Positions 6,713-6,883 of a stretch of 8,586 nucleotides of DNA are shown one piece after another; positions within the stretch are counted from its first letter, which is position 1; every line of letters starts with the position of its first letter. The notes below the pieces were generated by a model. The model ran no database searches and was not told where the DNA came from. It saw nothing but the letters and a program-made list of their open reading frames with translations. The stretch is from a virus (lineage: Monodnaviria > Loebvirae > Hofneiviricota > Faserviricetes > Tubulavirales > Inoviridae), in the IMG/VR virus record IMGVR_UViG_2690316267_000001; one strand, 5' to 3'. The translations under genes were made by a program, and so were the position numbers.

Positions 6713-6883
6713 AAGTAGTCACACCCATCAAAATATGTGTCAATAGTCATTTGTGAGCAGATTGAATGGTCACAATGTAATATGCTCAGATCTGACAGTC
6801 AATACATTTGCAATGTTTAAATTGTCAGAACTGAGCATGTAATCAGACTATTGAAAAACCACTGTTAAGATGGAGCGAAGTAG
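6713..6883. promoter_or_regulatory. divergent control region between gII (minus) and the HTH regulator (plus), containing a 57-bp imperfect dyad (6782-6838) and a direct repeat GTCAATA..CATTTG (6739-6753, 6798-6810)
   Basis: Arms ATGCTCAGATCTGACAG (6782-6798) and TTGTCAGAACTGAGCAT (6822-6838) are inverted repeats with 2 mismatches in 17, centred on TTGCAA; located between the two divergent start codons. Confidence 0.5.

What the first reader, a model, noticed from the sequence alone, without database searches (positions are those of the whole stretch)
6713..6883. Large dyad-symmetry element between the divergent gII and regulator genes
A 57-bp imperfect palindrome (arms 6782-6798 and 6822-6838, 15 of 17 positions complementary, centred on TTGCAA) together with GTCAATA..CATTTG direct repeats occupies the 171-bp divergent intergenic region. 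It could be the operator for the HTH regulator controlling gII, or, since the viral strand is single-stranded, an origin or nicking hairpin for the divergent pII. Either would be a key control point of the element.
Basis: seen in the sequence. Interest (0 to 1): 0.5.

Follow-up and report, generated by a model that had tools for sequence, protein, structure and literature searches.

The report
Repressor operator array upstream of gII
The large palindrome is real, but it is two inverted copies of a short repressor-binding motif (a third copy lies beside them) over the promoter of a filamentous prophage's replication gene; it is an ordinary immunity switch, not a replication origin.

Summary
The dyad is real: arms 6782-6798 and 6822-6838 match at 15/17, the inverted repeat extends to 27 nt, and the ssDNA fold has z = -4.9.

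Its best description is three exact copies of a 14-nt motif, GTCA-N4-TGAGCA. They lie at 6746-6759 (+), 6783-6796 (-) and 6824-6837 (+), spaced 39 + 39 bp, and are the only exact copies in the window. The palindrome is the two inverted copies. The middle copy fills the spacer of the predicted gII promoter.

The window is a CUS-1/YpfPhi/UPphi-type, dif-integrating E. coli inovirus.

- **Cassette exchange.** The intergenic region and the HTH gene (6713-7340) are swapped as one cassette between phages whose pII stays 89-96% identical.
- **Footprint.** Motif bases are invariant in diverged relatives; substitutions fall in N4 and between sites.
- **Specificity covariation.** Regulators with helix ISVSTLVRI (including Aeromonas and Photobacterium) keep TCA-N4-TGAGCA in otherwise unalignable regions. 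Those with I(N/G)VRTLVRI have GGACA-N4-TGTCC instead.
- **No conserved hairpin.** A relative keeps all three sites, yet complementarity drops to about 11/17 and the fold signal disappears.

The likely pII origin is a different hairpin pair at 7341-7386, shared with phage I2-2 and invariant across cassettes. Verdict: an RstR/ig-2-like operator-promoter region, a new member of a known kind. Binding is inferred, not shown.

The parts
6713..6883 (.). Divergent intergenic control region between gII (minus strand) and the HTH regulator gene (plus strand). It forms the left part of an exchangeable immunity cassette.
   Evidence: ORFs. Homology with other immunity types stops exactly at 6712/6713.
6783..6796 (-). 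O1, an exact copy of GTCA-N4-TGAGCA on the minus strand (GTCAGATCTGAGCA). It is the core of the left dyad arm (6782-6798) and fills the 17-nt spacer of the predicted gII promoter.
   Evidence: Contact bases are invariant in T1 variants, and variation is confined to N4 positions 6789 and 6790.
6824..6837 (+). O2, an exact copy (GTCAGAACTGAGCA). It is the core of the right dyad arm (6822-6838). Its centre lies about 54 nt upstream of the regulator ATG, a distance conserved at 50-54 nt in all relatives examined. It is a probable autoregulatory site.
6746..6759 (+). O3, an exact copy (GTCATTTGTGAGCA) in the same orientation as O2 and 78 nt from it. It lies about +8 to +21 relative to the predicted gII transcription start, a roadblock position.
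   Evidence: It corresponds to direct repeat D1. The 78-nt O3-O2 offset is conserved in L064, L062 and Aeromonas L065.
6887..6900 (+). Candidate fourth site O4 (GGCAACAATGAGCA, one mismatch) lying across codons 2-6 of the regulator gene, 63 bp from O2. Its status is uncertain because it is coding sequence.
   Evidence: direct repeat D2, and variants.
6774..6802 (-). Predicted sigma-70 promoter for gII: -35 TTGACT (6802-6797), 17-nt spacer, -10 TACATT (6779-6774).
   Evidence: 9 of 12 matches; the only site called in 6600-7000. Both hexamers are invariant in T1 variants. L064 has TTGACG/17/TATATT at the same place (read). The type 2 region has an analogous gII-directed promoter over its own repeat.
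6816..6843 (+). Tentative regulator promoter: -35 TTTAAA (6816-6821), a 16-nt spacer that is O2, and -10 TGTAAT (6838-6843). The scan did not call it because position 2 of the -10 is G.
   Evidence: Read from the sequence. A T(G/C/T)(A/T)AAT-like hexamer follows O2 in relatives. This is inference only.
6739..6746 (+). It is conserved immediately left of O3 in all regulator-family relatives regardless of operator specificity. Its function is unexplained.
6798..6805 (+). Distal GTCAATAC box. Its complement supplies the -35 TTGAC(T) of the predicted gII promoter.
6884..7330 (+). 148-aa XRE-family HTH regulator with recognition helix I37-S-V-S-T-L-V-R-I45. It is the YPO2273 (RstR-like) counterpart and the presumed ligand of O1-O3.
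   Evidence: Pfam HTH_3 at 1.4e-9 and Phage_CI_repr at 1.9e-4. It differs at 2 of 148 residues from the UTI89 and Y. pestis proteins. Literature: PMC4266046.
5660..6712 (-). gII, the rolling-circle replication initiator (Phage_CRI plus G2P_X_C). It is the gene presumed to be repressed.
   Evidence: It is 57% identical to I2-2 pII.
7341..7386 (-). It is a conserved hairpin pair: AACGTGCAGTGTTGGTAATACTGCACGTT (7386-7358) followed by GTCTCAttccTGAGAC (7356-7341). It is the candidate pII plus-strand origin core.
   Evidence: It is 84.6% identical over 52 nt to I2-2 2666-2716. Hairpin 1 is near-invariant (one apical T/A difference in Res13) in all immunity types, and hairpin 2 shows a compensatory change. 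In BH100N it is a 44-nt island of homology. Fold z = -4.4. Its layout resembles the M13 origin (PMC11765958).

Best explanation
The 171-bp region is the operator-promoter (immunity) region of a temperate CUS-1/YpfPhi/UPphi-type filamentous prophage. It carries three evenly spaced copies (39 + 39 bp) of a pseudo-palindromic site, GTCA-N4-TGAGCA (core TCA-N4-TGA). Each copy is probably bound by a dimer of the divergently encoded 148-aa HTH repressor. O1 lies in the spacer of the gII promoter, O3 just downstream of its start point, and O2 about 60 bp upstream of it, within the probable regulator promoter. Occupancy would therefore shut off gII and with it phage replication, give superinfection immunity, and probably autoregulate the repressor. 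The conspicuous 57-bp dyad exists because O1 is inverted relative to O2. What is shown: the motif, its exclusivity to this region, its conservation, its co-inheritance with the regulator, and its covariation with the recognition helix. What is inferred: physical binding, the promoters and start sites, cooperativity, and the direction of regulation.
For: 1. Three exact motif copies are the only ones in 8586 nt. One motif accounts for both the inverted and the direct repeats reported.
2. O1 coincides with the spacer of the only promoter-like site called in 6600-7000.
3. E. coli prophages with pII 95.7% (type 2) and 88.6% (type 3) identical carry unrelated intergenic regions plus unrelated regulators. 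Homology breaks at 6712/6713 and resumes at 7341-7345. SCU-484 keeps this region and the regulator although gII is deleted. Each other type has its own triple repeat overlapping a promoter-like site.
4. Among 10 distinct type 1 sequences, 1 of 30 motif contact positions varies, against 5 of 12 N4 positions and 38 of 129 other positions (Fisher p = 0.0007).
5. L064 (regulator 86% identical) has a much-diverged region but keeps TCA-N4-TGA at identical offsets 35, 74 and 113.
6. Regulators with helix IS(V/I)STLVRI from unalignable regions (L062, Aeromonas L065 with a Rep_trans replicase, Photobacterium L066, L067) all have (G/C)TCA-N4-TGAGCA. The copies lie in the regulator-gII region; one L062 copy falls just inside the called gII start. 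Regulators with I(N/G)VRTLVRI (L058, L060, L069, L037) have none, and instead carry GGACA-N4-TGTCC at the same places.
7. O2 sits 50-54 nt from the regulator ATG in all of them.
8. Published context: YPO2273 is described as an RstR homologue at the rstR position, and the intergenic region is 'believed to be involved in transcription initiation' (PMC4266046). RstR/ig-2 alleles give type-specific repression of rstA (PMC11509585).
Against: - There is no experimental binding or repression data for this protein; the review states its role awaits demonstration.
- P-type (Trb/TrfA) conjugative plasmids encode a 122-aa homologue with an identical HTH but carry no copy of the motif. An identical helix therefore does not always come with this site nearby.
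- The regulator's own promoter could not be called confidently.
- The 39-bp spacing is not an integral number of helical turns, so simple face-to-face cooperativity is not obvious.
- In variant L039 the N4 bases of O1 and O2 changed in parallel, giving 16/17 complementarity. This could hint at selection for pairing, although quasi-palindrome templated mutation or indirect readout would also explain it.
Confidence: 0.8

Rival explanations
1. The dyad is the pII plus-strand origin. It would extrude as a cruciform or fold on the viral strand and be nicked by pII.
For: It is a large hairpin on the viral (window minus) strand next to gII. pII-family origins are hairpins (PMC11765958).
Against: - Phages with 89-96% identical pII have unrelated sequence here, with no unusual fold (z = +0.30 and +0.47).
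- The region has no similarity to the I2-2 intergenic region, although pII is 57% identical.
- A different hairpin pair at 7341-7386 matches I2-2, is invariant across immunity types, and resembles the M13 origin layout.
- The same hairpin pair lies next to a match to the I2-2 packaging signal on a 2.3-kb plasmid.
Confidence: 0.02
2. The hairpin itself is the functional unit on the single-stranded viral DNA. It could be a minus-strand origin or an ssDNA promoter recognised by RNA polymerase, since the viral strand is the template for the regulator gene. It could also be a structure that presents a double-stranded operator before complementary-strand synthesis.
For: - The fold is strong (z = -4.9).
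- Complementarity of 14-16/17 is maintained across E. coli and Y. pestis type 1 variants, with a parallel change in L039: 6789 G to C together with 6831 C to G, and 6790 A to T.
- The packaged strand is the template strand of the regulator gene (gene orientations).
Against: - L064 keeps all three sites at the same offsets, but arm complementarity falls to about 11/17 and the fold z is -0.84.
- Types 2 and 3 and Aeromonas show no significant fold.
- The inner mini-stem is broken in L040.
- The third motif copy and the regular spacing have no role in a hairpin.
- The varying positions are exactly the N4 spacer bases of each site.
Confidence: 0.06
3. The repeats are mainly sites for a host regulator (RovA/SlyA-type, IHF, Fis or H-NS) rather than for the phage HTH protein.
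For: RovA is reported to bind the putative promoter region of YPO2274, the YpfPhi gII homologue. That intergenic region differs from the window at 8 of 171 positions (PMC4266046). The AT-rich centre of the dyad (6799-6821) is free of motif copies.
Against: A host-factor site would not switch from TCA-N4-TGAGCA to GGACA-N4-TGTCC in step with two residues of the phage regulator's recognition helix within the same host species. It would also not be replaced wholesale with the regulator gene. Host factors may well bind in addition, between the sites.
Confidence: 0.07

Closest known systems
CTXphi rstR / ig-2 / PrstA immunity region (Vibrio cholerae)
   Same: A repressor gene is transcribed divergently from the rolling-circle replication gene. 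Several operator sites lie in the short intergenic region over the replication-gene promoter. Repressor gene and intergenic region are exchanged together as allelic, type-specific immunity cassettes while the replication gene stays conserved (PMC11509585; dimer-of-dimers binding is cited in PMC8402870). Here at least four cassettes sit on near-identical gII.
   Different: The operator motif is different. No LexA box is detectable here, whereas CTXphi induction requires LexA cleavage (reference cited). The replication protein is of the Ff/I2-2 Phage_CRI type. Similarity of the regulator to RstR was not tested here and is taken only from PMC4266046.
YpfPhi (CUS-2) of Yersinia pestis and CUS-1 of E. 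coli O18:K1:H7 (YPO2273-YPO2274 intergenic region)
   Same: It is essentially the same element. The regulator differs at 2 of 148 residues, the intergenic region at 8 of 171 positions, and O1-O3 are all present. Integration is beside hipBA, and a perfect dif site lies at the other end of the UTI89 prophage.
   Different: The window combines this replication and immunity module with a UPphi/I2-2-like structural module. It carries C at 6831, which makes the dyad 15/17 rather than 14/17. No description of the operator motif was found in the searchable literature.
Lambdoid and 434-type operators (14-17 bp pseudo-palindromes with uncontacted central bases, in multiple copies over divergent promoters)
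   Same: The site is about 14-17 bp. Outer bases are conserved and the central four are variable. There are three spaced copies controlling back-to-back promoters. This comparison with the lambdoid systems rests on my own knowledge.
   Different: The sites are 39 bp apart rather than adjacent. One half-site carries an extra base (TGCTCA versus TGTCA). The regulator is short at 148 aa, and Pfam detects no peptidase S24 domain, so RecA-mediated self-cleavage is unlikely.
Ff (M13/f1) plus-strand origin
   Same: Nothing in the dyad itself resembles it. The hairpin pair at 7341-7386 does: a nick-type hairpin with T/AATA in its apical part, followed by a second palindrome.
   Different: The dyad at 6782-6838 has no such motif and does not travel with pII.

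Membership tests
Temperate-inovirus immunity region (RstR/ig-2 type repressor-operator module) | HTH repressor gene transcribed divergently from the replication initiator gene | tested here: met
   gII is 5660-6712 (-) and the HTH_3 regulator is 6884-7330 (+). The same layout is seen in all nine homologue loci whose upstream flank is held; L068 starts 37 nt upstream of the gene and cannot be judged.
Temperate-inovirus immunity region (RstR/ig-2 type repressor-operator module) | Repeated operator sites within the intergenic region that overlap the replication-gene promoter | tested here: met
   Three exact GTCA-N4-TGAGCA copies occur only here. O1 lies in the spacer of the predicted gII promoter. 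The promoter is predicted, not mapped.
Temperate-inovirus immunity region (RstR/ig-2 type repressor-operator module) | Repressor gene and intergenic region co-vary as an exchangeable cassette while the replication gene is conserved | tested here: met
   There are at least four cassette types on pII that is 89-96% identical, with boundaries at 6712/6713 and about 7340/7341.
Temperate-inovirus immunity region (RstR/ig-2 type repressor-operator module) | Operator sequence tracks the repressor's DNA-recognition residues | tested here: met
   Helix ISVSTLVRI goes with TCA-N4-TGAGCA (6 regions, 3 or more genera). Helix I(N/G)VRTLVRI goes with GGACA-N4-TGTCC (4 regions).
Temperate-inovirus immunity region (RstR/ig-2 type repressor-operator module) | Demonstrated binding of the repressor to the sites, repression of the replication gene, and superinfection immunity | not testable with these tools
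   This needs EMSA or footprinting and reporter assays. The literature says the role of YPO2273 awaits demonstration.
Temperate-inovirus immunity region (RstR/ig-2 type repressor-operator module) | LexA/SOS co-regulation, a feature of CTXphi specifically | tested here: not met
   No site in 6691-6900 comes within 7 mismatches of the 20-nt LexA consensus. The best CTGT-N8-ACAG matches have 2 of 8 mismatches.
Rolling-circle plus-strand origin of a pII (Phage_CRI) replicon | Sequence is conserved together with the initiator protein | tested here: not met
   The region is unrelated in phages with 89-96% identical pII. This criterion is met instead by 7341-7386.
Rolling-circle plus-strand origin of a pII (Phage_CRI) replicon | Similarity to the origin region of the nearest characterised relative (I2-2) | tested here: not met
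   No hit from the I2-2 intergenic region falls within the dyad or elsewhere in 6713-6883. The two significant matches are window 7337-7387 (hairpin) and 854-932 (packaging signal).
Rolling-circle plus-strand origin of a pII (Phage_CRI) replicon | Nicking by pII at a defined site | not testable with these tools
   This requires a nicking assay on supercoiled DNA.
Structured ssDNA element (minus-strand origin or packaging signal hairpin) | Hairpin potential conserved among relatives | tested here: not met
   Fold z is -4.2 to -4.9 here. It is -0.84 in L064, +0.30 in type 2, +0.47 in type 3 and -1.63 in Aeromonas. The packaging-signal homology lies at 854-932.
Known RNA family or intrinsic terminator | Match to an Rfam model, or a stem followed by a T-run | tested here: not met
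   The only Rfam match is a chance-level miRNA hit (20.6 bits against a gathering score of 61). No terminator-like sites were found.

The most novel reading that the evidence does not exclude
The operator array may also be a target for orphan repressors carried by conjugative plasmids. P-type (Trb/TrfA) plasmids of about 41 kb in E. coli and Salmonella encode a 122-aa homologue whose HTH is identical to the phage regulator (STYEELAEKTGISVSTLVRIASGKTEPKFSDII). These plasmids carry no copy of the operator motif. Filamentous phages of this lineage (I2-2, IKe) use conjugative pili as receptors. Such a plasmid could therefore silence the gII promoter of incoming or resident CUS-1/YpfPhi/UPphi phages, protecting the host whose pili make it vulnerable. 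A separate, less likely reading is that the O1/O2 hairpin on the incoming viral strand, which is the template for the regulator gene, gives early repressor expression or binding before second-strand synthesis.
Probability: 0.12. Interest if true: 0.65.

Novelty: new member of a known kind. Interest (0 to 1): 0.35.

Why it matters
This would give a concrete, testable operator (GTCA-N4-TGAGCA, three sites) and promoter layout for the switch that keeps CUS-1/YpfPhi/UPphi filamentous prophages quiet. Members of this group are linked to virulence in Yersinia pestis and to extraintestinal E. coli, and their repressor has never been characterised. It shows that these dif-integrating coliphages exchange immunity cassettes as CTXphi does, which predicts which prophages exclude which incoming phages. 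The two-residue helix difference paired with a changed operator is a ready-made specificity-swap experiment. The work also relocates the likely pII origin to 7341-7386, which matters for anyone building vectors or satellites from these phages.

Tried and rejected
- **Origin reading.** Rejected on the cassette-swap evidence and on finding the I2-2-like hairpin elsewhere.
- **Operator on the plasmids.** I looked for the operator on P-type (Trb/TrfA) plasmids that encode a homologue with an identical HTH. There was no 17-mer within 3 mismatches, no shared k-mer pattern, and no TCA-N4-TGAGC at any spacing that made sense. This was inconclusive as a test of binding and became a side observation.
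- **Genome-contig scan with the regulator.** It returned only Y. pestis (near-identical), a degraded Erwinia remnant without a usable upstream region, and two unrelated MAG hits.
- **LexA box and dif-like site.** Neither was found in the region.
- **Rfam.** Nothing meaningful.
- **Intrinsic terminator.** None.
- **Solved structures.** There were only weak generic XRE-domain matches, so no structural homologue could inform oligomeric state. Structure prediction was not run because it would not change the verdict.
- **Intra-arm palindrome.** I first considered TCAGATCTGA as the selected unit. L039 breaks it in the N4 while keeping TCA...TGA, so the unit is TCA-N4-TGA plus flanks.
- **Regulator promoter.** A first guess, TTGTCA/18/GACTAT, was dropped because L039 destroys the -10. 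The replacement, TTTAAA/16/TGTAAT, remains tentative.
- **RovA paper.** The primary paper (PMC1569194) is not held. Secondary sources disagree on the direction of RovA's effect.

Full report
**What the window is.** All phage genes lie on the minus strand:
- gIV 876-2234
- gI 2149-3243
- gVI 3244-3585
- gIII about 3585-4829
- gVIII 4875-5117
- gV 5331-5648
- gII 5660-6712

A 148-aa HTH gene (6884-7330) and a 140-aa membrane ORF (7429-7851) lie on the plus strand. The DNA from 105 to 7922 is 99.97% identical to a tandem prophage beside hipBA in E. coli SCPM-O-B-12142. The gII and regulator module is about 90% identical to the CUS-1 prophage of UTI89. The regulator is 99% identical to that of YpfPhi in Y. 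pestis. pII is 57% identical to pII of the non-integrating phage I2-2. The structural genes are of the UPphi/I2-2 type. One IS1 (7923-8586 plus 1-104) closes the window.

**Checking the observation.** The intergenic region is 171 bp. The arms 6782-6798 and 6822-6838 match at 15 of 17 positions, and the tool extends the inverted repeat to 27-nt arms at 81%. The viral (minus) strand folds far better than shuffles: z = -4.9 for 6775-6845 and -4.2 for the whole region, with 0 of 200 shuffles as good. The direct repeats are also present.

**Anatomy.** The inverted and direct repeats reduce to one motif, GTCA-N4-TGAGCA, present in three exact copies:

| Site | Coordinates | Strand | Sequence |
|---|---|---|---|
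| O3 | 6746-6759 | + | GTCATTTGTGAGCA |
| O1 | 6783-6796 | - | GTCAGATCTGAGCA |
| O2 | 6824-6837 | + | GTCAGAACTGAGCA |

- These are the only exact copies in 8586 nt.
- The centres of the N4 spacers are 39 and 39 bp apart.
- A one-mismatch copy lies over the regulator's first codons at 6887-6900.
- The motif is pseudo-palindromic, with core TCA-N4-TGA.
- The 57-bp dyad is O1 inverted relative to O2. The 78-nt direct repeat is O3 and O2.
- The only promoter-like site called in 6600-7000 points at gII: -35 TTGACT at 6802-6797, a 17-nt spacer, and -10 TACATT at 6779-6774.
- O1 fills that spacer. O3 lies about +8 to +21 from the predicted start. O2 lies upstream, where a weak regulator promoter may sit (TTTAAA/16/TGTAAT; my reading, not called by the tool).

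**Does the region belong to the regulator or to pII?** E. coli genomes provide a natural experiment.
- Type 2 prophages (ERP001, MS 196-1) and type 3 prophages (98227, Res13, BH100N) have pII 95.7% and 88.6% identical to the window's pII.
- Their intergenic regions are unalignable with this one, and each comes with its own unrelated divergent gene.
- Homology stops at the gII start codon (6712/6713) and resumes at 7341-7345, just past the regulator stop.
- SCU-484 has lost gII but keeps this intergenic region with the regulator.
- Each other type has its own triple repeat overlapping a promoter-like site.
- Their viral-strand folds are unremarkable, with z = +0.30 and +0.47.

The region is therefore part of an exchangeable immunity cassette (6713-7340) and is not a pII-linked element. 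This is the pattern described for rstR/ig-2 alleles of CTXphi (PMC11509585).

**Footprint within the type.** IMG/VR relatives found with pII supply intergenic regions 86-96% identical to this one.
- Of 44 variable positions, only 1 falls in the 30 motif contact positions. Five fall in the 12 N4 positions and 38 in the other 129 (Fisher p = 0.0007).
- Both gII-promoter hexamers are invariant.
- Within the two 17-nt arms, the only variable positions are 6789, 6790 and 6831, which are the N4 bases.
- In L039 these changed in parallel, so O1 and O2 both carry GAAG and the dyad reaches 16/17.
- In the common UTI89/YpfPhi form the dyad is only 14/17.

**Distant relatives.** A protein search with the regulator, followed by context look-ups, gave ten loci. 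In nine of them the homologue sits divergently from a rolling-circle replication gene. The tenth, L068, is a contig that starts 37 nt upstream of the gene, so its context is unknown.
- L064 (86% identical regulator, same recognition helix) has a strongly diverged 171-nt region that keeps TCA-N4-TGA at offsets 35, 74 and 113.
- In L064 arm complementarity falls to about 11/17 and the fold signal vanishes, with z = -0.84. The sites are conserved and the hairpin is not.
- Regulators with helix IS(V/I)STLVRI all have (G/C)TCA-N4-TGAGCA copies. These come from L062, Aeromonas veronii (next to a Rep_trans replicase), Photobacterium and L067.
- Their copies often form the perfect palindrome TGCTCA-N4-TGAGCA. 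The copies lie in the regulator-gII region, and one L062 copy falls just inside the called gII start.
- The 78-nt O3-O2 offset recurs in L064, L062 and the Aeromonas locus. O2 lies 50-54 nt from the regulator ATG in all of them.
- Regulators with I(N/G)VRTLVRI (L058, L060, L069 and L037, whose pII is 95% identical to the window's) have no such motif. They carry GGACA-N4-TGTCC at the same places.

This covariation between recognition helix and repeat is the strongest computational evidence that the repeats are the regulator's binding sites.

**Where the origin probably is.** The I2-2 intergenic region gives two significant matches to the window.
- Its annotated morphogenetic signal matches 854-932.
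- A 52-nt stretch at 84.6% identity matches 7337-7387.

On the viral strand the second stretch is a 29-nt hairpin (7386-7358) followed by a second hairpin, GTCTCAttccTGAGAC (7356-7341). The fold has z = -4.4.
- Hairpin 1 is invariant across all immunity types apart from one apical T/A difference in Res13.
- Hairpin 2 shows a compensatory change, to GTACCA/TGGTAC, in type 3.
- In BH100N it survives as a 44-nt island of homology.
- Its layout recalls the M13 origin, GAGTCCACGTTCTTT/AATAGTGGACTC followed by TGTTCCAAACTGGAACA (nick site per PMC11765958).

Assigning it as the pII origin is an inference. A 2.3-kb plasmid with an unrelated Rep shares it, which leaves open a role as a complementary-strand origin. 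That plasmid also carries a match to the I2-2 packaging signal, in the same order, so it looks like a natural phagemid. This would favour a pII-dependent origin.

**Mechanism proposed.** Dimers of the 148-aa XRE-type repressor (Pfam HTH_3 and Phage_CI_repr) bind O1, O2 and O3.
- O1 and O3 would block RNA polymerase at the gII promoter.
- O2 would add cooperative strength and autoregulate the repressor.

The outcome would be silencing of replication in the dif-integrated prophage and type-specific superinfection immunity. Partial immunity has been reported for YpfPhi (PMC4266046). Host factors such as RovA may act on the AT-rich centre of the dyad. No LexA box is present. Binding, start sites, cooperativity and autoregulation are all inferred.

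**Comparison and novelty.** Functionally this is the counterpart of CTXphi RstR/ig-2/PrstA. It is essentially the same element as the YPO2273-YPO2274 region of YpfPhi and CUS-1. The literature I could search offers only 'believed to be involved in transcription initiation' and 'regulatory role awaits experimental demonstration'. It is a new, well-defined member of a known kind and would not surprise a specialist. I score interest at 0.35.

**Caveats.**
- All evidence is computational.
- The type 1 variants are closely related, so the footprint rests on few independent changes.
- Promoter calls are consensus matches.
- The plasmid homologue with an identical helix but no motif shows that helix identity alone does not guarantee a nearby cognate site.

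Noticed in passing
window 7341-7386 (minus strand): A conserved hairpin pair lies between the regulator stop and the 140-aa ORF. It is 84.6% identical to I2-2 2666-2716 and near-invariant across all immunity cassettes. The second hairpin shows a compensatory change (GTCTCA/TGAGAC to GTACCA/TGGTAC). It is the likely pII plus-strand origin core, with GGT/AATA resembling the Ff CTTT/AATA nick context.
   Followed up: partly
L016 (plasmid pIAL7250_2, NZ_JBRFVO020000004.1) 876-920 and 1003-1033: A 2311-bp E. coli plasmid has a pC194-like Rep (HPHFH motif). It carries the same hairpin pair, 95.6% identical to window 7340-7384. It also carries a 31-nt match to the I2-2 morphogenetic signal, in the same order as in I2-2. 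It looks like a natural phagemid or satellite of I2-2/UPphi/CUS-1-type inoviruses.
   Followed up: partly
L018 (NZ_AP027835.1) 8070-8438, and many similar ~41-kb plasmids (P0042, P0047, P0064, P0069, P0070 and others): P-type (Trb/TrfA) conjugative plasmids encode a 122-aa homologue of the phage regulator with an identical helix-turn-helix. They contain no copy of the operator motif. It may be an orphan repressor acting on filamentous phages that use conjugative pili.
   Followed up: partly
window 6713-7340, compared with L004, L005, L007, L009, L037 and L058: At least four different immunity cassettes (intergenic region plus regulator) are attached to gII genes 89-96% identical in E. coli dif prophages. 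The recombination boundaries are sharp, at the gII start codon and just before the conserved hairpins.
   Followed up: yes
window 6739-6746 and 6798-6805; the same boxes in L058, L060, L062 and L064-L067, L069: TGTCAAT(A/G)G boxes are conserved next to O3 and in mid-region in all relatives, whatever the operator specificity. The distal box supplies the gII -35. The proximal one is too close to the gII ATG in some phages (11 nt in Photobacterium) to be a promoter element, so its role is unexplained.
   Followed up: partly
window 7923-8586 and 1-104: A single IS1 spans the window ends. It replaces about 1.26 kb of the intact prophage unit, including the 1110-nt ORF present in NZ_CP144928.1 and UTI89. 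No dif-like site within 7 mismatches remains in the window.
   Followed up: partly
window ~4371 (gIII, minus strand): There is a one-base deletion relative to NZ_CP144928.1 (AAGAATAG to AAGATAG). It lies inside gIII, annotated there as one 414-aa attachment protein, and is consistent with the two ORFs listed here (3585-4058 and 4250-4963). It is either a pseudogene or a sequencing error. A second difference is a substitution at 4945.
   Followed up: partly
window 854-932 (minus strand): This stretch is 73% identical to the annotated morphogenetic (packaging) signal of I2-2 (2260-2330) and overlaps the end of gIV.
   Followed up: no
window 6887-6900: A one-mismatch copy of the operator motif (GGCAACAATGAGCA) overlaps codons 2-6 of the regulator gene, 63 bp from O2. 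TGAGCA is retained in all variants, but the sequence is coding, so its significance is unclear.
   Followed up: partly
L062 1861 (inside the called 492-aa rep gene, 416-1894): An operator-motif copy lies exactly 78 nt from the O2 equivalent but falls inside the annotated start of the rep gene. This suggests the called start is too far upstream.
   Followed up: no
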